Part shown: piece after piece, positions 17,599-54,205 of the stretch
Layout: each line of letters begins with the position of its first letter
How positions within the stretch are numbered: position 1 is the first letter of the stretch
IMG/VR virus record: IMGVR_UViG_3300028797_000007
Location: 1-64,000 of that record
Length of the DNA: 64,000 nucleotides
Source: a virus
Taxonomy: Duplodnaviria > Caudoviricetes
Direction: 5' to 3' (one strand)
Notes under the pieces: model-generated
Databases searched by the model: none
What the model was told of the DNA's origin: nothing
Seen by the model: the letters and a program-made list of their open reading frames with translations, nothing else
Position numbers and translations under genes: made by a program

Positions 17599-17721
17599 TT
17601 AAAAGCACAAAATATAAAAATGAAGCTCATTTTAGTAGCGTAAATCGCTTAAAATATATTTTTAATATAAATATATTAAAAAAGATAAAAGTCGTTAAAA
17701 ATGAGCTTTAAATGCTTTTAA
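17599..17721 (+). promoter_or_regulatory. Nested inverted-repeat leader of the sugar-modification cluster; contains conserved element copy 2
   Basis: TTAAAAGCA/TGCTTTTAA and AAGCTCATTTT/AAAATGAGCTT stems enclose two small hairpins; ends at the AGGAGG RBS. Confidence 0.5.
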
Positions 17722-17732
17722 AGGAGGTAAGC

Positions 17733-18650
17733 ATGAAATACTTAATAACTGGTAGTGGGTATTTAGCTAAACATCTTATAAAAGAACTTTTGAAATCAAA
17801 TGATGTAGAAAAAATTAAAGTATTCTCAAGAGCAGAAAAAGGTCAGTGAGAATTAACTAAGATTTTTAAAGATAAAAGAATAGATTTAATTATTGGTGAC
17901 ATCAGAGATGCTCAAGCCATCAATGATGCTATGAAAGATGTAGACTACTGTATTCACACTGGAGCTATTAAAAGAATTGAGGTTGCAGAAAAACAACCTA
18001 TGGAAGCAATTAAAACTAATGTAGTAGGAAGTATGAATGTAATTAACGCTTGTATAGCGAATGGTGTTAAAAAACTTATTCTTATTTCAACTGACAAAGC
18101 AACTTCTGCTACGACTTGTTATGGTAGCACAAAATTTTTAATGGAATGCATGGGTTATGCTAATGAAAGTAACACAGCAATTATTAGCACAAGATATGGT
18201 AATGTATTTGGTTCAACAGGTAGTGTTGTTCCTATATTTGATAATCTAGTTAAAAAAGATGAGCCACTAACTGTTCGTAATGGAGAAATGACTCGTTTCT
18301 TTATGCCGGTAGATAAATGTGTTAGTATAGTAATGGACGCTTTAAAAGATGGACAAAATGGTGAACTATGGGTTTATGAAAGTAAATCTTGTTCTATTCA
18401 AGAATTAGCAAACGCTTTTAGCAATAACCAAATCGTTACTGGAACTGAAAGCATTGAAAAAAATGATGAAGCACTTATTACCGTAAGTGAATTAAATCAT
18501 AGTAAGAAATATAAAGATTATTTTGTTATTCGCAAAGATTATGAAAGCGATATCAAATATGAGGAACCATTAACAAGTTATACTGCACAAAGATTAACAC
18601 AAGAAGAAATAAAACAAATGATAGAGGATTGGAGAGCAAATGAAAATTAA
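17733..18650 (+). CDS. UDP-GlcNAc 4,6-dehydratase (PseB/FlaA1/CapD family; TGA=Trp at 17847)
   Basis: FSRAEKGQ(W)EL, GDIRD, KTNVVG, STDKA, YGSTK, RYGNVFGSTGSVVP, MTRF. Confidence 0.9.
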
Positions 18651-19440
18651 GCTATACTCTCTCTATCCTCGCTTTAATGATTTTCAATTACCTAAATATA
18701 TTAAGTGGTCAGATGACGGGGAAATTGAAGCATACCAGGATTCATTTATATCATTAGGTATACAAAATAAAGATAATGGTAAAAAGAAAATTGCTATTAT
18801 TACTGAACCTAGATGTGTTTGGGAATTATTTTATAAAACTAATTTAAGTGATTTATTGGAAGAAAACCAGGGCGTATTTGAATATATATTCACTTACGAC
18901 TCCGTTATCCTAAATCTGCCAAATGCTAAACCGGTACCTTTTGCAGGAGTTTGAGATACAAATGACTTGGTAAAAACAAAAGATATATCAATGTGTTGCT
19001 CAAACAAATCAATGTGTGAAGGTCATTTATTAAGAAAAAAAGTTGCAGATAAATTGAAAGATAAAGTAGATGTTTTAGGAAACTATCTAGGACCTGTAAG
19101 AGTATCTACAAAAGATATTTATGGTGAATACAAATATAGCGTAGTTATGGAAAACGAAATTGACGAATGGTTTTTTACTGAAAAAGTATTAAATGCGTTT
19201 GCTAATAAATGCATCCCAATATATTATGGTTCACCTAAAGTATTAGATATATTTAACAAAGATGGTATTATCTATGTAGAAGATATAAATGATATAGAAA
19301 ATATAATAGATAATCTAAATCCTAATGAATATAAAAATCATTTGAAAGCAATAGAAGAAAACTATGAAAAGGTTAAAAAATATGTATGCTTTGAAGATTA
19401 CTTGTATGAAACCTATAAAGACTTATTGGAGGAATTATAA
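18640..19440 (+). CDS. GT10-like (fucosyltransferase-like) glycosyltransferase (TGA=Trp at 18952)
   Basis: ISMCCSNK..CEGH..R, YKYSVVMEN, FFTEKVLNAF, IPIYYG match the GT10 C-terminal motifs. Confidence 0.8.
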
Positions 19441-20657
19441 TGTTTAGTATTGTAATGATGTCTTGCGACAAATATAAATGTCTAGCCCCTGCTTTTGAAG
19501 CATGCTTAAATAAATATTACCCTAATCATCCAAAAATCTATTCAATCTTTGGTGATGATATATGGAGTAAGCGTTTAAGAGAAGGTGTTAAGCAAATTGA
19601 AGACGAATATATTTTATTTATGTTAGACGATATGTTCGTTAGAGAACCTGTTAATGAAGAATTAATAAACGATGCCTTACAAGTATTACAAAATAACCCA
19701 AAAGTTGCCGTAGTTAATTTTGAAAATAATTATAGAGATGCTATAGCATTTTCTGATAATTGGGTAGAACAAAAACAAAATCAAATGTATTTACATAGTT
19801 GTCAACCAAGTCTATGGAGAAAAGCTGCCTTAATAGATAATTTATCTAAAGACGAAGATGCTTGGTCATGAGAGATGACTTGGATAAATAATAATTGAAA
19901 ATATCTAATTAATAAAGGTGCTAATATTATTAATGTAGGGAGAACTAATGATTTAAACTGGGGAGTTGCAAGAGGAAAATTAACTAGTGAATGCAGGAGA
20001 TTTTTAATTTCCGAAGAATTATATTCAAATGAGATAAAAGAGTTCTTTAGACCGGTTAAATTAACTCTTATAACACCTTATTATAAAACTTTAAATGAAA
20101 CAAAAGAATTAGCCAATATATTAGGACCTCAGTTAACTGATGAAGTTGAGTGGATAATTATAGATGACGGCTGTCATGAGACAGAATTAGATAATTTACC
20201 TGCTAAGGTTATTCATTTAGAAAATAACAGTGGTAATGCAAGCATACCTCGTAATATCGGTTTGGATAATGCCGAAGGAACATACATTGGTTTTATTGAT
20301 AGTGATGATATGATTTCTCAAAGATATGTTGAAGTTTTATTAAATAAAATCAATGAGGAGATATTTGATTACTGTTTATTTAGTTGGAAATATAAACAAA
20401 ATGATTTAGGAGCTGTAATAATTACAGACCAACCACCAGCATGGAATCAATCTATTTGGAATTGTATTTATAAAAGAGATATGATAGGTAATATTAGATT
20501 TAATCCAGATATAGATTTTGGAGAAGATGCCTTATTTAATTACGAAACACGAAAGGGCATTAAAGTAAACGTTACAGACATATTATATATTTATAACGGT
20601 GGACGAATTGGTGGATTAACTTGAAGACAAGGACAAAAAGAAAAAGAGAGTGTGTAA
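19440..20657 (+). CDS. Two-domain glycosyltransferase: GT-A-like N-domain plus GT2 C-domain (405 aa; TGA=Trp at 19869, 19896, 20622)
   Basis: N-domain SCDKY, LFMLDD, QPSLW, AWS(W)E; C-domain ITPYY, IIIDDG, RNIGL, FIDSDD, GED. Confidence 0.82.
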
Positions 20658-21848: not shown

Positions 21849-21866
21849 TTTGTCTTCTCTTTTTTT
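21825..21866. terminator. Bidirectional terminator between the converging arms
   Basis: AAGAGAAGACA-CTAATT-TGTCTTCTCTT flanked by A- and T-runs. Confidence 0.85.
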
Positions 21867-24800
21867 ATGCTGTAAAAATAGGACCAGTTGTTCCAGTGTT
21901 TGATTTACAATCATTTTCATTCGTACCGATATATACTAAAATACCATTTGCAAATCCAAGATAACCTGAACCAATTTTACAATATCCGTCACATCCCTGT
22001 ACAAGAGTCGTCGTACCATATTTATAGGTTTTTAATGTTTTTGTCTTTAAATTTAAAGCATACTCGCCGCCTACTTCTATATCAGTCGCCAAAGTAGATT
22101 TTAAATGTAATTCCCCCGTTCCTTTACAGGTTACCGCTGCTAATTCTTCAGTACCATTAGCATTCTTCATAGCGCCAAGATAAGCTGTATTACCAGAACA
22201 AGCTTTTAAGTCTAAATTTTTACCGCCCCCACCAGGAGTAACAAAGCCATCTGCACTAGCACTAATAGCCACCCCTGCGTTCATACTAATTCTAGCACCA
22301 GTATTTAATAAGAATGTACCTCCTACATTATCAACATTTGGATAAAAAGCTAAGGTACCATCAGCAAATATATTAGCCCTTCCACCATTGCTTTGACTTC
22401 CTCTATTTTTAATATAATCGTCTACTATAATTCAACCACTAGTACTTGTTCCAGTGTAAATAGTAGAACCACTAACTGTAGAACCGCTAATGGTTGAAGC
22501 TGTAATTGTACCTTTAATACTAGCACTACTACAAGTTAATTTACCATCACTGGTAACTTTAAAATTACTTCCCAGTGTTATTGAACCACTATTCATAGTA
22601 AGATTTGTAGCAGTAATGTTGTTTGCTGTAAGATTACTAATACTACCACCAGTCGCAGTTAAATTATCTGTTGTAATTGTACCGGTAATATTTGCATTTG
22701 TAGCTTTTAAAAATCCTTCATTTGTTACATAGAATGGCGTAGAATTTGCTCAACCAGATGTAGACCAAGGGTCACTACCTCCGGCATAAAAAGCAGGGTC
22801 ACCAGCATAATTGGAGCTAGCCATACCCGTAATATGATTATTAGCATTTTTAGCCCATAATTTATTAGTTTCAATTGTGAAGCCACCTATTCTACCAGAC
22901 GTACTATATAAGTCTCCTGTAGGGGTTACACCAAATTTACCATTAGAATAAATAGAATAATTTTGCGTAACACCATGAACTGTTCCACTTATACCGCCAG
23001 GACTTAGCCATAAATCTTTAGTGGTTCCATTTAAATGATAAAAACCTTGATTACTTGTAATCCAGTTAGCTATATTACTACCTTCTTCAGCTACTAAAAA
23101 ACCTTTAGTATATATTAAAGGATTATTACTTCCATCAACACCAACAAATGATGCTATATTATTATTAGTACCCCAGTTAGAAGCATATGAAGCATCATTT
23201 TTAGCACTTGTAGTATTAAATTCAGTAACGTGTGAAGTTTTACCAGCTGATTGTCTAACTGACAAACCATATTGGTCTATCAATACTTTACCTGCTAAAC
23301 CAGACATAATAGTAATTTTATTTGTATCAATAGAACCACTATTAAGATATGTTGCATTAATACCGCTTGGGCTCATCATTTTTTCCCAAGTTACCGGTTC
23401 ATTTGCATCATTATCTAAATTACTTGTATTAAATATACCATTACCTGCATATTTCATTGCTCTATGTGGGTCTGTTGGGTCTGTAGCTCTTAAACCAGAA
23501 CTATCTAATAATACATTACCATTAGTACCAACTATACTAATGTTAGCATGACCATTATCTAGAGACTCTTTTAAGCTTTCGGCATCTAATGTACCGTCTG
23601 CTTTTAAAACAGCTGTTCTAGCATAAATATCTGCGTTATTTAATACAGTATTAGTTGCAGTAATAATATTACCAACCAACTCTTTGTCATCAGTATAAGC
23701 AGTATTGATTTCTATTTTATTATTTATAGGATTATCTGGATATCTTGTTATTTGTGTGATAAGACCTGGAACTCCATACATTCCCATAGGCTCATCATAA
23801 ATAGATATATAATCTCCTGCTTTAGGAATAATTTGTCCTACACTATGCAATAATCTAACCAAGTCATTATAAACATCATTTTCAGTAACAATTAATTGGT
23901 TACCACAAATAGGACAAGAATTAATTGGCGTATAACTTATATAATCACATTCAGCGCAACGGTATTTAGTTACTGTAGGTTCTCTGTATTCAATTAAACC
24001 AGAAGAATCGATTACATTTAAGTTCCAAGTAACTTCTGGAACTGAATATTTATCAGATGCTTCCATACCTTCTTGGAATAATAAGTTAACATAAGGTTGT
24101 TCATTATTAGTGTAATTACCTTCTACTAAAAAATCTCCAAAGTTTTCTTGAATTGTTGCGTTTAAGTCTTTTATTATAGCTTCCCATTCATCATAAATTT
24201 CATCTAATTTTTGGATTTTGGCTAACATAGCATTTACTGTCCTTAAATAAGAAAGCATATCACCATAATTTTCAATGTATTTAAGAATTGCATCATTCCA
24301 TACTTCAATTTGTCCACTTGTAGAACGAACATAAACCCCATCTAATTTATATGTATACCCGTCTTCCCAGCTTACAGTGCTATTTTCAAATGGAATAGTA
24401 GTTATCATAGATACTCTATCTTCATAATCTTCAATAGACCAACTAGCGTTAGCGCGGTCTAAACTCATAACCAATCTTTGATAGTAACCTTTTAAATGAG
24501 GATTATATCTTTGACCTTCATATTTTCTAGTTACATCTGTGCCATAAGGATAGAATGTATCTCTATCATCCCAGTGATATTCATCTTTAAAATCATCATA
24601 TACTGGAATATAAATTGCATTATTAACTAAATCTTTAGGATGATGTGTAGGGTCTGTATTACTTAAACATTGTGCATTTGGACATGTAGTAATATTTGCT
24701 CCCGCACTTGAACCATTAGGAGCTATAGCCCTAGTTTCTCCACAAACATAACAATGGAATAGTTTTATATAATTCTTTCCATTTGATTTATAAGTTCCTT

Positions 24801-26826
24801 TTGGTGGCTTGTGGAAACAATAAGTCATTCCCTCAGAGTATTGACCATCAACATTATAATATTTATTTTCCATAGCATATAGGGTTGATTCATACCCATC
24901 TTGAGCTATATCATAATTATTAACCGCATCATTGTATAATTGTCTAGTATTACGATAGTCATCTATATATTTATCCATAAATGCTAAATTAAGGTCATTT
25001 ATTTGCATTTCATATTGGTATAGTTCCAATATTTGTTCTTTAGTAATCCAATTATTTTGATACGCCCATTTTAAGTTTAAAATGTAATTAGTACCATAAG
25101 GACTACGAGAATTAATATACATATCATCATTAGGAGACCATTCTCCTGATGTACCTGTAATAGGGTCTACTAAAACAGTTACACCATTAACTGTTCCTTT
25201 CCATAAACCAGATTCTTGTAAAGTTCCTAATACTCATTGATTATTATTAAAGAAATAAACCTTACGACCAGAACCAGCCACCCAATAATTTTTAACATTA
25301 GTATCGTGTGTTTCTACTTGTACTGGAACTAATTGAGGTTCATCGTCAATTTCCCTCAATTCATATACTGTCTTATTAAAATTGGCAGCAGGTAAAGAGT
25401 TATCGACTATACACCAATATCCTTCTACATTTGTAGTACCTGGTAAACTTCTATAAAAACCAGTAAAGGTTTTAATGTAACTTCTTTCTGCCGTACCTAT
25501 ATTAATATTAGCGTCACCGTTATAATCTTTACCACCTGTACAATACAATTTAGTAATAACTTTTTCACCATCTGACTTAGTGTTATCATCTTTTATATTT
25601 TTACCTAAAGCATAAACCAAGCCATAATTTTTACCAGCAAATTCATGTAAAGCAACGGTTCTGTTTACACAATCAAATACTGGGTATAATTGTAATGCTT
25701 GACAAGTTGCTGTAATGGCATTATAACAGTTACCATTACTTAAACTTATATTGCTTGTTTTATCTACTGTTTCTGTTGAAGTTGTAGACCCTTTTGGATT
25801 AGGTATAGTAGTCTGAACTATATCTACATCTGGAGTACCATTAGGTCTTAGAGCAACAGACCAGTTAGTTCCTTCTAATATATGGTATAAATAATTAAGA
25901 GCATTATTAGGACATAAATATTTATCTACTTCGTATATTTGAGCCCACTCCCATGAATATCTATCTATATATAAATCAGGGTCTATACCCTCAGTACTTA
26001 AATTATAAAAATCATAAAGTTGTAAAACTAAATAGCCACCCTTTTTATACAATACCCCATTAAAACGAGCTGTAGACGTAATAGGCCAATAAAAAGCTGT
26101 AGCCAATAAACCATAAGGCCAAGAAGCCGTATTAGCCATTAAACGAGTAATCTCTGTTTTACCTAATGGATATTCTTTAGCATGTTCTGGGTCCCAAACT
26201 AATGGAATATTATTATTACCCGCAGTTGCACTTAAAGCAGAAGTCCATTGTTGGTATTTAATCGTACCAGGTTTATCCATAGGTTTATTTTCATATAAAG
26301 ACCATTCGTCTCTCGTTAATGTGTCTTGTGATATATTTAAACCAACTCTTTTTTTACTTAAATTAAATCTAGGATAGTCCATTGCAGTAAAGCTTGTTGT
26401 AGTTTTCAATACATCTCTTTTTGTGTCTACTGGCTGAACTATATAGTCCATTATATAATCTTCTATAACATTGTCTGGATAGACATTAGAATAAGTCTTA
26501 TCTATGTATTCTACTTGGTCACCATAACCTTGTGGTTCACGTACTGTTATAGGTTGCTCTCCTGTATAGTAAACTTCTCTATGATAACGTAATTTTACAA
26601 GAGGTGTTAAAAGGTCTTGTAATGGGTTTTTTATCTTATCTCCCCTATCATTTATGATAGTATTAGGCATATCAAACTTTAAATCACTATAACCTGTATT
26701 AGCTTCTGTAATAGAAATATTAAAAGCATAACCAGGAGTTCTATGGTCATCTGAGTTAAATATAGTCTTTTTAATATTATCTTGATAGTCTAACACGTGT
26801 AGGGTTTCTTTTACGTATACTTGCAT
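21865..26826 (-). CDS. Tal / tail-tip hub-spike protein (1653 aa; TGA=Trp at 25234, 22750, 22432)
   Basis: Prophage-endopeptidase-like hub (LYHILEGTNW, VITKLYCTGG), coiled coil, GINATYLNSGSIDT, beta-rich C-terminus; three track ORFs join in one frame. Confidence 0.82.
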
Positions 26827-26940: not shown

Positions 26941-27489
26941 CTACATACTGTCTACACCAGGATATGGATTAACATCTGGGTCAACAATTAGACCTTCATC
27001 TATAACAATTTCAATAGTATGGTCTCTTGTGATACCAGAGTATGTAATCTTAACTTCTGTCTCACTTATTTCTTCAAATGTAATCCAAGCAGGGTTACCT
27101 GTCTTATATTCTTTACCATCTACGATTAAATGGAAAGCAGTTACCTCACTACCGAATGTTATTAAAGATGAAACTGTAGCACCCTCTTCTATATTTTCAA
27201 TTCTTTCTGCATCTGGAGCATATCCCTCTATGTTTTCATAAGAAAGAACATATAGATTAGGTTCAGGTATAGGTTTCTTACCATAAATTAAGTCTAAATA
27301 ATATGATTTGTCGTCAACTATTCTTAAATCTTCGTATCCGACTTTACCTAATAGTTCTAGAGCTGTAGTAGCTGCTTCTTCTGGTGTTAATACAGCATAT
27401 TCTACTGTTTCGTCATTATCGTTAGTTACCATATGAAAAGCAAAAACGTTTTCTCTAGAAGTGTGTAACTTAGTCATAATTTTATACAT
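26941..27489 (-). CDS. Hypothetical acidic late protein (possible accessory virion protein)
   Basis: GGAGG RBS, own late motif; ends DPDVNPYPGVDSM. Confidence 0.7.
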   Translation of the reverse strand: MYKIMTKLHTSRENVFAFHMVTNDNDETVEYAVLTPEEAATTALELLGKVGYEDLRIVDDKSYYLDLIYGKKPIPEPNLYVLSYENIEGYAPDAERIENIEEGATVSSLITFGSEVTAFHLIVDGKEYKTGNPAWITFEEISETEVKITYSGITRDHTIEIVIDEGLIVDPDVNPYPGVDSM

Positions 27490-29480: not shown

Positions 29481-29518
29481 CACTATTATATAGTAGATTT
29501 TAAAGCTCTCCTTTTAAA
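29481..29518 (-). promoter_or_regulatory. Putative late promoter (lysis cassette)
   Basis: TTTA-N19-TACTATATAATAGTG. Confidence 0.6.
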
Positions 29519-30630
29519 ACTTTTTCTCACTTATCATAATCACATCTATCTTCATAAGTAACCTTTTTAGGCTTGTGATTAAATATTTTATCAATATCAA
29601 GGTCGCTCAAATCTAGATTAAGTAAATAACCATTTTCTCCTTCCTTAACAATATTTAATGCTTCTGGAAAACGAGTTAAGATAACAGGTACTCCTCTTTG
29701 TAAAGCTTCAAATGCACTGTAACAAAAACTTTCTGTATCACTAAGTTGCACTAAATAATCGCATCCTTTTATCAACATCTTATTAGCTGTTGATGGAGGA
29801 ACTATAATAAATTCTGGTATAGATTTTATTTCTCCTAATATTTTAGAGTCTTTAATTTGACTTAATGAACAGCAAACAAATCATATGAAATGTTTATGCT
29901 CTTCTTTAAACTTTTTAGCCATCTCTATCATACGCCATATACCTTTTTCTTTTGTAGCTCTTGATAAAGTAATAAAAGTCATGCCGTCTTCATCTTCATA
30001 ATCATGGTCCAATATATTATATATAACTTCTGGCTCTACTTGGCAAAAAGGTTGTAATCCTTTAGCTGCTGTATCTGAAACACAAATTATTTTATCAACT
30101 CTTGCAGGTTTAGACCACTCAAGATTAGCATAATCAGGATGACTAGCTTTCATACCACTTAAATCTGCATGTATCATTTGATATACTTTATCTGCTTTAG
30201 CTCTATGTAATATATTACCGCCATCATAATTACCTAAAATTAAAATATCACATTCAAATTGTTTTTGGTTATCAATAACTACATCTGCGTATCTACTTAA
30301 ATTAGCTAATTGAGCAGGTTCAATCATATTACACATAATAGTAATATTTCTATCACGATACTTCTTTACAAAGTTAAATAAGAAAGTTTCTATACCACCG
30401 ATATAATATAAATATCCTTGACGAAAGACTACTTTTTTGCCAAGTCTCTTATATTGTTCTGGTTTACGGGAAGAAATGAATTCAACATATTTCGTTTTAT
30501 TACGATTTTCTCCCATAAGTTCTATTAATCTGTCTATTGTATCAATATCATAAACATCCCCAACTTCTCTCATTTTAACTGGGTCATATTTTGTATCAAC
30601 AAATCTTCTTACTACTTTTACTGTAAACAT
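29500..30630 (-). CDS. GT4 (GT-B) glycosyltransferase with an extra N-terminal small domain (376 aa; TGA=Trp at 29881, 29527)
   Basis: IGGIETF, ICVSD, VIYN, LSRATKEKG, DYLVQLSDTESFCYSAFEALQRGVPVI (EX7E), GENGY. Confidence 0.88.
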
Positions 30631-30661
30631 TTTCTCTCCTCCTTTATCTTATCCATTCTCT

Positions 30662-30698
30662 CTCTAATATATAGTATCATAGGGACATAAAAAATAAA
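30662..30698 (-). promoter_or_regulatory. Putative late promoter (GT4 gene)
   Basis: TTTA-N18-TACTATATATTAGAG. Confidence 0.7.
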
Positions 30699-30710
30699 GA
30701 GAAGACCCCA

Positions 30711-31613
30711 CTATTGGGTCAACTCTATAAATGTACCATCTTCTTGTTTTTGCCATACCCTTGCGTTAGGTGCTATACGATATTCTATTTCCATTTCGGC
30801 ATTTTGGTCATTAGTTATTTCCGTTTGTCCTTCGCATGAATCCAATAAAATATAAGGTTGTGATGGCACTTTTATCTTATTTTTACGCTCGTAGCAAATA
30901 AATACTTTCCCATTATCCATTCAATTTAAAAAACTACCTAAGTCAGGATATCTTGTGGCATCAGCTGATATATAAACCCTTTGGTCTTTTATTTTTATTC
31001 TATTAGGTTGCGATAAATCTTCATTAGCTTTAAAATGGGTGCACCATATATCGGTAGAATCGTTTTTAGCATTAGATAAAAATAGACTTATAACAGTAAC
31101 GACATTATTAGAATAAACATTATCTAATTGCCAATTATCTGTATTTTTAAAACTATCATATATTGTCTTTAAGTAAACATACCCATTTTCATAATAATCT
31201 TTAACCCCATTTTGTAAACTACATAAAGGTTGAGGCGAATAAATCAATTCCTTATGATTTATATTTTCTGTCGTATAACATTTTATCTCATAATTCCCTG
31301 TAGATGAATTTAATGTTCCTTTTTTGGTGATAGCTTTAGATGAAGTCATAGTAGGAGTACCTGATTGTGTACTTTCTCCATATAATTTAAAGCTCTCTAA
31401 TGGCATATTAATTCCATCGTTAATTATTATATCTCTACCATAAGCCTTTTTAGTATTTTTAACTAATTCATAACTATACTCTGCACTCAATGGAGCATCG
31501 TCTGGTTTACCATTGTAAGCCCATACTTCATAACCATCTTCACCAAGTGAATCCATTCTATGCAAGTCTTCTCTAAAATTCACTTGAGGATATATCTCTT
31601 TAAAATTACTCAT
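30711..31613 (-). CDS. Tail/baseplate-associated protein (300 aa; TGA=Trp at 30921)
   Basis: KLYGESTQSGTPT motif typical of Firmicutes phage tail proteins; joins two track ORFs. Confidence 0.65.
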
Positions 31614-31905: not shown

Positions 31906-32592
31906 TTACATATCTTTTGCATTCATTAAACCAGAAATTTGACTTCCTAAATGGTCGACATATTGACGTACATATTCAGGTTCTTCTTGCATTTTGTTAT
32001 CAGTAGTATAAGTTATAACTACAGCTCCTATAACATAACCGCTCGTGTTAGTTAATTTGTAAGCATAAAAAGAACGTAATCCTCTCCCTTTAAGTACCTC
32101 ATATGTTCCTGGGTCTTTTGATTTTACATCTTCTACATTAGATATAAAAGAACCACCGGTTTTATCTATTTCTTCTATAGGATAAGCTAGCATCGCTCTA
32201 AATTGACTTTGGAAATCAGATATGACTGGTTTGTAACCTATATTAACACTTTCGTTAGTAACACTGAATTTTAAAAAGGAGATAGAATTCATATCCTTCC
32301 CACCATTATGATAACGAGCTACCATAGCACGGCTTGCGCCTAAATCAGTTACTGCAGATTGTAAAAGCATATTAATAGTTTTATCTATTTTCATAGCAAC
32401 ACGGTCTTCTTCTTCTGTTAATACATGCGAATTACCAACGCGTAATTGGTCTAATATAGCTTGGAATAATTTTGTATTTATATCTTCTTGTTTTTGATGA
32501 TTTCTTAAAATGATATATAAAAATATACCGGCAATAACAGTTAAAACACCTAGTTCTGCTATAGATTGTGCTATTGATAAACCATATTCCAT
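31906..32592 (-). CDS. Membrane protein: N-terminal TM plus GAF-like domain (possible second holin or lysis regulator)
   Basis: TM around residues 10-29; MVARYHNGG..FLKFSVTNE..GLRSFYAYKL..VIGAVVI GAF-like pattern. Confidence 0.55.
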   Translation of the reverse strand: MEYGLSIAQSIAELGVLTVIAGIFLYIILRNHQKQEDINTKLFQAILDQLRVGNSHVLTEEEDRVAMKIDKTINMLLQSAVTDLGASRAMVARYHNGGKDMNSISFLKFSVTNESVNIGYKPVISDFQSQFRAMLAYPIEEIDKTGGSFISNVEDVKSKDPGTYEVLKGRGLRSFYAYKLTNTSGYVIGAVVITYTTDNKMQEEPEYVRQYVDHLGSQISGLMNAKDM

Positions 32593-53230: not shown

Positions 53231-54205
53231 TTACATACTAGCTGGGTCAACTGGGTCGTAGTTTTCATCTAATGGATAAACTTTTCCAGTGTCAGTTAAA
53301 TGTCCATCAACAGAGTCAACTGTAACTTCTTTAGCTGGTACACGTTTAAATGAACCATCATATTGTCCGTAAGTTTCGTCTCCAGATTTTCCTTCTTGAC
53401 GTAATTGTCTGAATTTAATCATTTGTCCTTCGTCATCTCTTAAAGCTTTTCCTTTGAATGAGAATACTACAGCTTCTGTAGCAGCATTTAAGTTAAATGA
53501 GAATGAACTGTCAAGTTTTAATTTAGGAATTTCAATTTGGAAGATGTCATTTAATCCAGTATATTGGTTAAATAATAATGTATCACCAATAAATTTGTAT
53601 GTTCCAGCAAATTTATCAGCTAAAACTGTGATTTCAGTTAATTCTTCAGTTTTTGTTGGGAATCCCATTTCATATTCATAGAATACTCTGAAAGTAGCAT
53701 CTCCAACGATGCTGTCTTCTTTGTAGTTATGGAAATCACTAAATGAAATAGTATCAGTTTCTTCTTCTAGAGCATTTTCAGTTCTAGTAGCAGTTGATAA
53801 AATACCATTTATCATTTCAGCAATATAAACATAAGAACCTTTACGAGCTTTTCTACCTAATACGATAGTTTGTGCACCATCAGCTACGTGTACTAATTCA
53901 CTTTCCATCATAACGATTTTTTCTTCATTAGTACCTTCTCTTAATTCACCACCAGTTAATACTGCTAATGAACTCATAGTCATAATAGCGTCATCAAATT
54001 GAACATTGATAGCTTTAGAGTGAGATACAGAAGCTAATGTTGGGTTACCTTTACCACCTTGGATATCAGTAACTTCAGCAGTACCTTCAAGAGTAGTAAC
54101 TTTTAATGTATCGAAATACATTACTGGATATTTAGTAACTAAATCGTATAATGTAACATCACAAACAGTAACTGAAGCATATTTTCTTCCTTGAATATCT
54201 AACAT
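53231..54205 (-). CDS. Major tail tube protein
   Basis: YFDTLK, GGKGNP.L, FAGTYKFIGDT, IPKLK; highly biased codon usage; own terminator; ends DPVDPASM. Confidence 0.85.
   Translation of the reverse strand: MLDIQGRKYASVTVCDVTLYDLVTKYPVMYFDTLKVTTLEGTAEVTDIQGGKGNPTLASVSHSKAINVQFDDAIMTMSSLAVLTGGELREGTNEEKIVMMESELVHVADGAQTIVLGRKARKGSYVYIAEMINGILSTATRTENALEEETDTISFSDFHNYKEDSIVGDATFRVFYEYEMGFPTKTEELTEITVLADKFAGTYKFIGDTLLFNQYTGLNDIFQIEIPKLKLDSSFSFNLNAATEAVVFSFKGKALRDDEGQMIKFRQLRQEGKSGDETYGQYDGSFKRVPAKEVTVDSVDGHLTDTGKVYPLDENYDPVDPASM

What the first reader, a model, noticed from the sequence alone, without database searches (positions are those of the whole stretch)
29500..30630. Late GT4 glycosyltransferase fused to a small virion-protein-like N-terminal domain
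This GT-B enzyme lies in the morphogenesis/lysis arm with its own perfect late motif (30662-30698), separate from the other sugar genes. Its first ~55 aa (MFTVKVVRRFVDTKYDPVKMREVGDVYDIDTIDRLIELMGEN...YVE) precede the GT fold. They resemble the small V..F.D....R.VGD.Y....R..EL proteins often encoded beside capsid genes in siphoviruses. Inference: this is a particle-targeting module, making the enzyme the likely priming transferase for structural proteins.
Basis: partly seen in the sequence, partly recalled or inferred. Interest (0 to 1): 0.75.

Follow-up and report, generated by a model that had tools for sequence, protein, structure and literature searches.

The report
Phage glycosyltransferase linked to tagged virion proteins
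A late gene of a 111-kb rumen/gut phage encodes a sugar-transferring enzyme fused to a small adaptor domain, and comparison with other phages suggests it decorates the capsid and tail proteins through a short tag at their C-terminal ends.

Summary
The gene at 29500-30630 (minus strand) is real. It is whole only if two in-frame TGA codons (codons 250 and 368) are read as Trp. Homologues have invariant Trp at both positions, and the phage carries a tRNA with anticodon UCA.

Residues 63-376 form a GT4/GT-B glycosyltransferase with intact catalytic motifs. Residues 1-60 form a separate small beta-rich module. Its profile finds 117 proteins at E<=1e-3, mostly 48-110 aa standalone phage proteins (DUF7210/phrog_933-like). 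Three checked relatives sit at or one gene after the major capsid gene. In distant relatives of the enzyme, the module sits at the C-terminus or is a neighbouring ORF.

New evidence comes from comparing phages. Phages with this GT4 family have capsid and tail-tube proteins ending in Ser/Thr plus a hydrophobic residue. This holds in six capsid lineages with no detectable similarity to each other, including the cultured Butyrivibrio phage Arawn. One close relative (capsid 89% identical) has no such enzyme and lacks the tag on all three proteins.

The scan had already noted the Ser-Met tails and the TGA recoding in this genome. Interest 0.72; a new variant of a known kind.

The parts
29500..30630 (-). 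Glycosyltransferase gene, 376 codons plus TAA stop. Whole only with TGA read as Trp.
30451..30630 (-). N-terminal module, residues 1-60 (four strands, one helix, one strand). DUF7210/phrog_933-like.
   Evidence: AF2 models. Profile search: 117 hits at E<=1e-3, mostly standalone 48-110 aa proteins. hhalign probability 99.4. Pfam and PHROG hits of relatives.
29503..30444 (-). GT-B catalytic core, residues 63-376. The N-terminal Rossmann domain would be the acceptor side and the C-terminal domain the donor side.
   Evidence: Pfam PF00534 and PF13439. Foldseek best matches are HepE, BshA, MshA, GtfA and TarM.
29881..29883 (-). In-frame TGA at codon 250. Trp is invariant here in homologues.
29527..29529 (-). 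In-frame TGA at codon 368. Trp is invariant here in homologues.
29707..29733 (-). E-x7-E motif (E300...E308) of retaining GT4 enzymes. Both Glu are invariant.
30662..30676 (-). Late-promoter-like motif TACTATATATTAGAG, exact copy, 31 nt upstream of the ATG.
30689..30720 (-). Terminator-like hairpin (GACCC/GGGTC) plus a T-run, ending the upstream gene. This would make the GT gene the start of its own late transcription unit.
   Evidence: Read from the sequence. Not tested with the terminator scan.
30635..30643 (-). Ribosome-binding site AAGGAGGAG.
   Evidence: Read from the sequence.
57945..58970 (-). Major capsid protein (YonB/SPbeta-type family), ending ...DDNPSM. Candidate acceptor.
53231..54205 (-). 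Major tail/virion structural protein (phrog_2729), ending ...DPASM. Candidate acceptor.
26941..27489 (-). 182-aa late protein of unknown family, ending ...GVDSM. Its orthologues end in S-[LIV]. Candidate acceptor.
17712..20657 (+). Accessory sugar genes: CapD/PseB-like 4,6-dehydratase, GT10-like, GT2. The 405-aa GT2 was found in only 1 of 5 GT4-positive relatives searched.

Best explanation
The gene encodes an active, late-expressed retaining GT4 (GT-B) glycosyltransferase. It is translated through two UGA codons read as Trp.

Its N-terminal 60 residues are a DUF7210/phrog_933-like module. That module also occurs as a standalone small protein at or near major capsid genes in other phages. In distant relatives of this enzyme it is attached to the C-terminus instead.

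In a GT-B enzyme the C-terminal helix returns to the N-terminal (acceptor) domain. So either placement puts the module beside the acceptor side (inference from established GT-B architecture).

The most likely job is to act as the constant transferase of a virion-protein glycosylation system. In this reading the enzyme adds a sugar to short C-terminal tags ending in Ser/Thr plus a hydrophobic residue. These tags are carried by the major capsid protein, the tail tube and other late proteins. The module would help recruit the enzyme to these substrates or to assembling particles. The dehydratase, GT10 and GT2 genes at 17.7-20.7 kb would supply or extend the glycan in this particular phage.

Shown here: the gene, the fold, the catalytic motifs, the module's homology and mobility, the late motif, and the co-occurrence with tags.

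Inferred: the acceptor, the site, the sugar, and the module's role.
For: Enzyme:
- PF00534 at 50.9 bits.
- Invariant GGIET loop, R224/K229 and E300-x7-E308 in 114 sequences.
- AF2 model at pLDDT 93.7.
- GT4 structures are the best Foldseek matches, including the protein O-GlcNAc transferase GtfA.

Module:
- 117 hits at E<=1e-3 among 1.84 billion representatives. Most are standalone 48-110 aa proteins. Some are C-terminal in GT4 or GT2-GT4 proteins.
- A local HMM finds the module at the C-terminus of distant GTs in L012, L019, L022 and L025. It also finds adjacent small ORFs in L005 and L024.
- Standalone relatives lie beside or one gene after the capsid gene.

Late expression:
- Exact late motif.
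- Conserved block of 228-aa protein, GT, endolysin, holin, 182-aa protein and 1653-aa tail protein in most of L001-L009, with inserts and gaps; rearranged in L010/L011.

Co-occurrence with tags:
- In every GT4-positive relative searched where both genes were found, capsid and tube end in [ST]-[AVILMF] (G005-G010, and G002 with the other GT4 clade). The exception is the G011 capsid.
- About 100 of 120 capsid homologues carry a variable 6-aa tail that always ends in S-[IAM].
- G001 has a capsid 89% identical and its contig covers the whole late arm. It has no GT1- or GT2-family gene. Its capsid (..NTELV), tube (..VKAGE) and 182-aa homologue (..DPNE) are untagged. Its tape measure has T->R at position -1.
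- Small ~30-kb phages with the C-module GT4 have tagged capsid and tail proteins in L012, L016, L019, L025, L026 and Arawn (IASV, VTSA).
- These capsids fall into six lineages with no BLASTP similarity to each other, and into different PHROG families.
- The background rate of such an ending is 4.8% by composition.
- GT-less Streptococcus phages: 1 of 6 such proteins is tagged.
Against: - No biochemical evidence for any glycan.
- There is only one informative GT-less close lineage (G001, with L034 probably the same lineage).
- The G011 capsid is untagged although that phage has the GT.
- The distant G003 and G004 have capsid tails ending PYG[IM] with no GT4.
- In Arawn the homologue lies in the replication module, between an SSB gene and a replication initiator gene and near a nucleoside 2-deoxyribosyltransferase-like gene.
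- Standalone module proteins, and the C-terminal copies, carry Lys-rich tails, which suggests binding to a polyanion.
- The fold matches of the module are weak (best Z 4.8).
- In this phage the portal and a 401-aa protein also end in [ST]-hydrophobic, and their G001 homologues keep that ending. So the loose motif over-calls.
Confidence: 0.5

Rival explanations
1. The enzyme glycosylates a host envelope polymer late in infection, such as wall teichoic acid, lipoteichoic acid or another cell-wall glycan. This could mask receptors so that progeny are not trapped on debris, or could block superinfection. The module and basic linker would bind the anionic polymer or the membrane.
For: The gene sits next to the endolysin-holin cassette and to a 228-aa protein that appears, by reading, to begin with a transmembrane helix. 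TarM, a GT4 that glycosylates teichoic acid, is among the fold matches with the highest identity at 20%. Module relatives carry Lys-rich tails.
Against: It does not explain why unrelated capsid and tail proteins carry the same C-terminal ending wherever this GT family occurs. It also does not explain why the tags are missing in the GT-less relative. Envelope-modifying GTs are typical of temperate phages. In the relatives examined here the GT is a constant late-arm gene.
Confidence: 0.15
2. The enzyme does glycosylate virion proteins, but the N-terminal module is not a targeting device. It could be an oligomerisation or regulatory domain, comparable to the extra DUF1975 domain of TarM and GtfA. 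Substrate recognition would then lie in the GT-B cleft.
For: Many GT4 enzymes are oligomers (general knowledge of the family, not tested here). The closest fold matches are repeat or packing domains: major vault protein repeat at Z 4.8, and Pfam Vault hits at E 1e-3 for three relatives. There is no evidence of binding to any partner.
Against: Standalone copies exist without any enzyme, at or near capsid genes. The module keeps its place on the acceptor side whether it is N- or C-terminal (inference from GT-B topology).
Confidence: 0.2
3. The enzyme glycosylates phage DNA (hypermodified bases) and the module with its basic tail binds DNA.
For: The Arawn homologue lies between an SSB gene and a replication initiator gene, near a nucleoside 2-deoxyribosyltransferase-like gene. 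In L016, and apparently L019, the GT is near a gene that looks like a ParB-type DNA methyltransferase by its N-terminal sequence (not confirmed by any search). The PHROG label 'Arc-like repressor' applies to 17 of 58 module relatives. Relatives carry Lys-rich tails.
Against: No ThyA-like pyrimidine hydroxymethylase was found in the complete 111-kb genome. The gene lies in the late arm behind a late motif. The predicted topology of four strands, one helix and one strand is not a ribbon-helix-helix, and no DNA-binding fold stood out. This reading does not explain the tags.
Confidence: 0.05
4. The gene is a pseudogene, broken by nonsense mutations.
For: Table 11 gives two in-frame TGA codons.
Against: Both TGAs fall on invariant Trp positions. 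The same TGA recurs in relatives 73-80% identical, and all catalytic residues are intact. A tRNA with anticodon UCA is present, and many other genes of the genome need the same reading.
Confidence: 0.02

Closest known systems
Mycobacteriophage virion glycosylation (Che8 gp110, Corndog gp38; Freeman et al. 2023, pmid 37329881, as summarised in PMC12363180)
   Same: Phage-encoded glycosyltransferases that modify the phage's own capsid and tail-tube subunits.
   Different: No detectable sequence relation. A tblastn search of 50,697 phage records finds only Butyrivibrio phages. The likely hosts are low-GC rumen/gut bacteria rather than actinobacteria. The enzyme carries a DUF7210-like module, and the candidate acceptor is a 2-residue C-terminal signature on otherwise unrelated proteins. 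Nothing here has been shown biochemically.
GT4 retaining glycosyltransferases with solved structures (BshA, HepE, MshA, GtfA, TarM)
   Same: GT-B fold, E-x7-E motif, GG loop and R/K phosphate binders.
   Different: Only 13-20% identity. By sequence only the C-terminal domain matches, at E about 2e-4. None of these has the N-terminal 60-aa module.
DUF7210 (PF23843) / phrog_933 / phrog_2616 small phage proteins. B. subtilis YqbF (PDB 2hjq) and lambda gpFI C-domain (2lsm) are weak structural neighbours.
   Same: Shared motif K-V-K..F.D....R.vGd.FeV...R...L.g.N....vE. Same predicted small beta-rich fold. These are small genes of unknown function, and the ones placed here lie at or near the capsid gene.
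   Different: Here the module is fused to an enzyme and lacks the Lys-rich tail. The module itself does not reach any Pfam model. The YqbF and gpFI matches are only Z 4.1 and 3.6, which is not evidence of kinship.
Butyrivibrio phage Arawn gp42 'glycosyl transferase' (NC_048848)
   Same: Same GT4 family: 29% identity over residues 61-372. Carries a DUF7210-like module. The capsid (..IASV) and major tail protein (..VTSA) are tagged.
   Different: The module is at the C-terminus. The gene lies in the replication module of a 31-kb phage that uses the standard code. A separate standalone module protein (gp06) follows the capsid gene.

Membership tests
GT4 / Pfam Glycos_transf_1 (PF00534) | Match to the family model above the curated cut-off | tested here: met
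   50.9 bits against a cut-off of 26.4, residues 213-337. It is the only PF00534 gene in the genome.
GT4 / Pfam Glycos_transf_1 (PF00534) | GT-B fold of two Rossmann-like domains | tested here: met
   AF2 model at pLDDT 93.7. At least 500 Foldseek matches at E<=0.001; the best listed are GT-B enzymes, mostly GT4.
GT4 / Pfam Glycos_transf_1 (PF00534) | E-x7-E motif and R/K phosphate-binding residues | tested here: met
   E300, E308, R224 and K229 are invariant in 114 sequences.
GT4 / Pfam Glycos_transf_1 (PF00534) | Retaining transfer from a nucleotide sugar | not testable with these tools
   Needs an enzyme assay.
DUF7210 (PF23843) / phrog_933 | The module itself matches the family model | tested here: inconclusive
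   No Pfam family at E<=10 for the window's module, and PHROG phrog_390 only at E 0.016. Of 58 aligned relatives, 11 match DUF7210 (best 5.5e-5) and 40 match phrog_933.
DUF7210 (PF23843) / phrog_933 | Profile-level homology to the standalone small proteins | tested here: met
   hmmsearch: 117 hits at E<=1e-3 in 1.84 billion proteins. hhalign probability 99.4, E 2.4e-21; the standalone set was chosen by the first search, so this second test is not independent.
Phage virion glycosylation of the mycobacteriophage type | Glycans present on capsid and tail-tube subunits | not testable with these tools
   Needs mass spectrometry or glycoprotein staining.
Phage virion glycosylation of the mycobacteriophage type | Transferase homologous to those of Che8 or Corndog | tested here: not met
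   tblastn against 50,697 phage records at E<=1e-5 finds only four Butyrivibrio phage records.
Phage DNA glucosyltransferases (T4 alpha/beta-GT type systems) | Companion pathway that makes a hydroxymethylated pyrimidine | tested here: not met
   No PF00303 (ThyA-like) match in the complete genome. Other routes were not searched.
Stop-codon-recoded phage gene (TGA read as Trp) | In-frame TGA at conserved Trp positions, plus a phage suppressor tRNA | tested here: met
   W250 and W368 are invariant. A tRNA with anticodon UCA lies at 87418-87513.

The most novel reading that the evidence does not exclude
A portable 'glyco-tag' system in phages of low-GC gut and rumen bacteria. A two-residue C-terminal signature (Ser/Thr then a hydrophobic residue with the free carboxylate) would mark capsid, tail-tube and other virion proteins. 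The DUF7210 module would read it, either fused to a GT4 enzyme at its N- or C-terminus or as a free protein next to the capsid gene. The module would bring the transferase to the assembling particle. The tag would have been acquired independently by at least six capsid lineages and lost together with the enzyme.
Probability: 0.3. Interest if true: 0.85.

Novelty: new variant of a known kind. Interest (0 to 1): 0.72.

Why it matters
Virion glycosylation by phage enzymes is so far documented mainly in actinobacteriophages, where it shields particles from antibodies.

If this system works as proposed, it would add three things:
- a second, unrelated route, in abundant rumen and gut phages;
- a first function for a very common small phage domain of unknown function (DUF7210/phrog_933);
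- a minimal C-terminal tag that could explain how one enzyme recognises unrelated structural proteins.

It is directly testable, because a cultured phage-host pair (Butyrivibrio fibrisolvens and phage Arawn) carries the same three elements.

Tried and rejected
- **Nucleotide search.** The locus gave no match against phage records.
- **Solved structures by sequence.** A profile of the module against solved structures gave nothing significant. YqbF is not found by sequence.
- **Fold search of the module alone.** The best Z was 4.8 (PriS C-terminus, GINS, vault repeat, bL9 N-domain; YqbF at 4.1; gpFI-C at 3.6). This is below the level at which a shared fold can be claimed. BFVD gave only small uncharacterised phage proteins at E 0.05-0.8.
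- **ESM Atlas.** The best score for the module was 0.83, which is a lead only.
- **Complex prediction.** I did not resend those sequences. A job with the window's own capsid protein and GT residues 1-249, without alignments, returned 'no answer'. It counts neither for nor against binding.
- **Literature.** No paper mentions DUF7210. YqbF papers were uninformative. The Arawn paper does not discuss the GT. Freeman et al. 2023 is not held.
- **Code 4 as an artefact that fuses genes.** Considered, then dropped for this gene because of the invariant Trp positions.
- **A link to the whole sugar operon.** Rejected as a constant feature, because the 405-aa GT2 is present in only 1 of 5 GT4-positive genomes.

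Full report
**1. What is in the sequence**

Under table 11 it is cut twice by TGA. The first cut is at codon 250 (29881-29883), inside the Glycos_transf_1 domain. The second is at codon 368 (29527-29529).

A search of 5.8 billion proteins gave 787 relatives. Most are 370-380 aa and come from contigs of up to 120 kb. In alignments of 22 and 114 of them, both positions are Trp, invariant in the 114-sequence alignment. Two relatives were called as 249-aa stubs ending exactly at the first TGA position. One was called as a 367-aa protein ending at the second.

Relatives L001-L003 also use TGA inside the gene, while L004-L009 have none. The window lies in a 111,499-bp terminally redundant phage contig. 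That contig has 26 tRNA genes, one of them a 96-nt tRNA with anticodon UCA. The gene is therefore intact under TGA=Trp. The scan had already noted this recoding for the whole genome.

**2. The enzyme**

- Pfam Glycos_transf_1 scores 50.9 bits against a cut-off of 26.4. Weaker Glyco_trans_1_4 and Glyco_transf_4 matches support it.
- The GGIET loop, H154, R224, K229 and E300-x7-E308 are invariant.
- The AlphaFold2 model has mean pLDDT 93.7.
- The best Foldseek matches to solved structures are GT4 enzymes: HepE, BshA, MshA, GtfA, TarM, WaaG and PimA, at 13-20% identity.
- By sequence only the C-terminal domain reaches solved structures (BshA, E about 2e-4).
- It is the only PF00534 gene in the genome.

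**3. Expression signals**

The 15-mer TACTATATATTAGAG occurs exactly at 30662-30676, 31 nt before the ATG. The window has three exact copies and one copy with one mismatch, against 0.19 expected. With two mismatches allowed, further copies appear. Most of these copies sit 25-55 nt in front of minus-strand late genes that have strong ribosome-binding sites. The endolysin gene is one of them. A hairpin and T-run that end the upstream gene precede the motif (read). The gene thus looks like its own late transcription unit.

The block runs 228-aa protein, GT, endolysin, holin, 182-aa protein, 1653-aa tail protein. It is conserved in most of L001-L009, with inserts and gaps, and rearranged in L010 and L011.

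**4. The N-terminal module**

In the full model, residues 1-58 form four strands, one helix and one strand ahead of the first Rossmann strand. Folded alone, the module gives the same layout at pLDDT 84.

A profile of eleven GT N-termini was searched against 1.84 billion representatives. It found 117 proteins at E<=1e-3. Most are 48-110 aa proteins in which the module is the whole folded part, usually followed by a Lys-rich tail. Others carry it at the C-terminus of GT4 or GT2-GT4 proteins. One carries it after a domain that looks like a nucleotidyltransferase by its sequence, though Pfam gave no match.

Of 58 aligned members, 11 match Pfam DUF7210, 40 match phrog_933 and 27 match phrog_2616. 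The window's own module reaches no model.

Distant GT relatives (28-32% identity, ~30-kb contigs) start directly with the GT-B fold or carry a GT2 domain in front. A local HMM finds the module at the C-terminus in L012, L019, L022 and L025. It also finds separate small ORFs just after the GT in L005 and L024.

The module is therefore a mobile unit tied to this enzyme family. In GT-B enzymes the last helix returns to the N-terminal, acceptor-binding domain. Both placements therefore put the module on the acceptor side. This is an inference, because I could not read the model's coordinates.

Standalone relatives, reached through P0157 and P0171, were placed in three Streptococcus phages. They lie directly after the major capsid gene in 315.1 and Bonnie, and one gene further on in MissC.

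Fold searches give no firm relative. The best Z is 4.8. B. subtilis YqbF scores 4.1 and the lambda gpFI C-domain 3.6. The gpFI gene also sits right after the capsid gene, but that is from my own knowledge and is only a lead.

**5. What the enzyme may act on**

The scan had noted that the capsid, tail-tube and 182-aa proteins of this phage all end in Ser-Met. I tested this across phages.

*Capsid homologues.* The capsid protein belongs to the YonB/SPbeta-type family. Among its 120 closest homologues, about 100 end in RNTEL plus a variable six-residue tail that always finishes S-[IAM]. About 20 stop right after RNTEL, with at most one further residue. More variants end in T-I, T-A or S-F. Orthologues of the 182-aa protein end in S-[LIV].

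*GT4-positive relatives.* Tail-tube proteins end in S-[AIV] in G002 and G005-G011, the GT4-positive records searched. The capsid is tagged in all of these except G011.

*The GT-less relative.* G001 is a close relative: capsid 89% and tube 87% identical. Its contig covers everything from the terminase to the early region.
- It has no GT1- or GT2-family gene.
- It has no homologue of the sugar genes.
- Its capsid (..NTELV), tube (..VKAGE) and 182-aa homologue (..DPNE) are untagged.
- Its tape measure protein has T->R at the penultimate position.

*Joint loss of tags.* A second tail-less capsid lineage (G014/G015) also has an untagged tube. The GT region of those contigs is not covered.

*The sugar genes.* The 405-aa GT2 of the sugar genes is present in only one of five GT4-positive genomes. 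The GT4 is therefore the constant partner of the tags.

*Small phages.* The pattern repeats in small phages carrying the C-module form of the enzyme:

| Phage or locus | Capsid ends | Major tail protein ends |
|---|---|---|
| L012 | SFSI | PDSV |
| L016 | KLSA | not covered |
| L019 | EVSA | VISA |
| L025 | AVSL | DTSL |
| L026 | ATSA | not covered |
| Butyrivibrio phage Arawn | IASV | VTSA |

Arawn also has a standalone module protein, gp06, right after its capsid gene. These capsids fall into six lineages with no BLASTP similarity to each other. Three of them fall in different PHROG major-head families. The capsid assignments in L016 and L019 rest on position and on weak hits.

*Background and controls.* The chance rate of such an ending is 4.8% by composition. 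Ten of ten independent capsid and tail lineages is therefore far beyond chance. GT-less Streptococcus phages with standalone modules show the ending in one of six proteins.

**6. Weighing**

The simplest reading is that this GT4 family works on the tagged virion proteins. O-glycosylation of the penultimate Ser or Thr is the obvious chemistry.

Weak points:
- No biochemistry.
- One informative negative lineage.
- One untagged capsid in a GT-positive phage (G011).
- Distant capsids ending PYG[IM] without this enzyme.
- The loose motif also fits proteins whose G001 homologues keep it (portal and the 401-aa protein).
- The Arawn homologue sits among replication genes.
- The Lys-rich tails of module proteins suggest a polyanion partner.

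DNA glycosylation is unlikely here. The complete genome has no ThyA-like hydroxymethylase and the gene is late. Modification of a host wall polymer remains the main rival for the enzyme's target, but it does not explain the tags.

**7. Comparison and novelty**

Phage-encoded virion glycosylation is known from mycobacteriophages (Freeman et al. 2023, as summarised in PMC12363180). The present enzyme has no detectable relation to any actinobacteriophage gene. It carries a module of unknown function. It is associated with a minimal C-terminal signature on otherwise unrelated proteins. I rate it a new variant of a known kind.

Noticed in passing
G000 87418-87513 (outside the window): A 96-nt tRNA with anticodon UCA lies among 26 phage tRNAs. 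ARAGORN calls it SeC under code 11 and Trp under code 4. It is unusually long for a Trp tRNA.
   Followed up: partly
window 21865-26826 (-): Three table-11 ORFs (530, 790 and 139 aa) join through TGA codons into one 1653-aa frame. Gaps of 111 and 465 nt between them contain no TAA or TAG. The frame has a Prophage_tail domain and lies after the lysis cassette, an odd place for a large tail protein.
   Followed up: partly
window late arm; genome-wide count: 13 of 111 ORFs of at least 100 aa end in [ST]-[AVILMF], against 4.8% expected by composition. Most are late or structural genes: portal, tape measure, a fibre/adhesin, the 1653-aa tail protein, a 188-aa protein and a 401-aa protein. The tag may extend beyond capsid and tube.
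   Followed up: partly
G003:C1:13387-13872 (record of L050): A distant relative (capsid 38% identical, 124 kb) has a GT2 gene with five in-frame TAG codons. This suggests a TAG-recoded branch of the same phage group.
   Followed up: no
L005:11136-11381 and L024:3313-3486: Standalone module-like small ORFs lie immediately downstream of the GT gene. In L005 this is in addition to the N-terminal copy on the enzyme.
   Followed up: partly
P0142 (273 aa); L019:3549-4214: A protein that looks like a nucleotidyltransferase by its N-terminal sequence (no Pfam match) carries the module at its C-terminus. A similar enzyme, without a detected module, follows the GT in L019. The module may serve several sugar-activating or sugar-transferring enzymes.
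   Followed up: no
G002:C1:55843-62855 (L062, L063): A 110.7-kb relative lacks the syntenic N-module GT. Instead it has a cluster of a GT2-GT4 fusion (561 aa), a GT4 (361 aa) and a CapD-like dehydratase elsewhere in the genome. Its capsid and tube are still tagged.
   Followed up: partly
L146 (Arawn 25082-25459): A nucleoside 2-deoxyribosyltransferase-like gene lies three genes upstream of the Arawn GT in the replication module. It could point to nucleotide-pool or DNA chemistry in that phage.
   Followed up: no
window 31906-32592 (-): A 228-aa protein that appears to begin with a transmembrane helix is conserved directly upstream of the GT in most relatives. No family was assigned.
   Followed up: no
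window 57945-58970 (-): The capsid protein belongs to the YonB family (SPbeta prophage capsid), so this ~111-120 kb phage group is SPbeta-like. Homologous contigs include at least one human gut metagenome assembly.
   Followed up: partly
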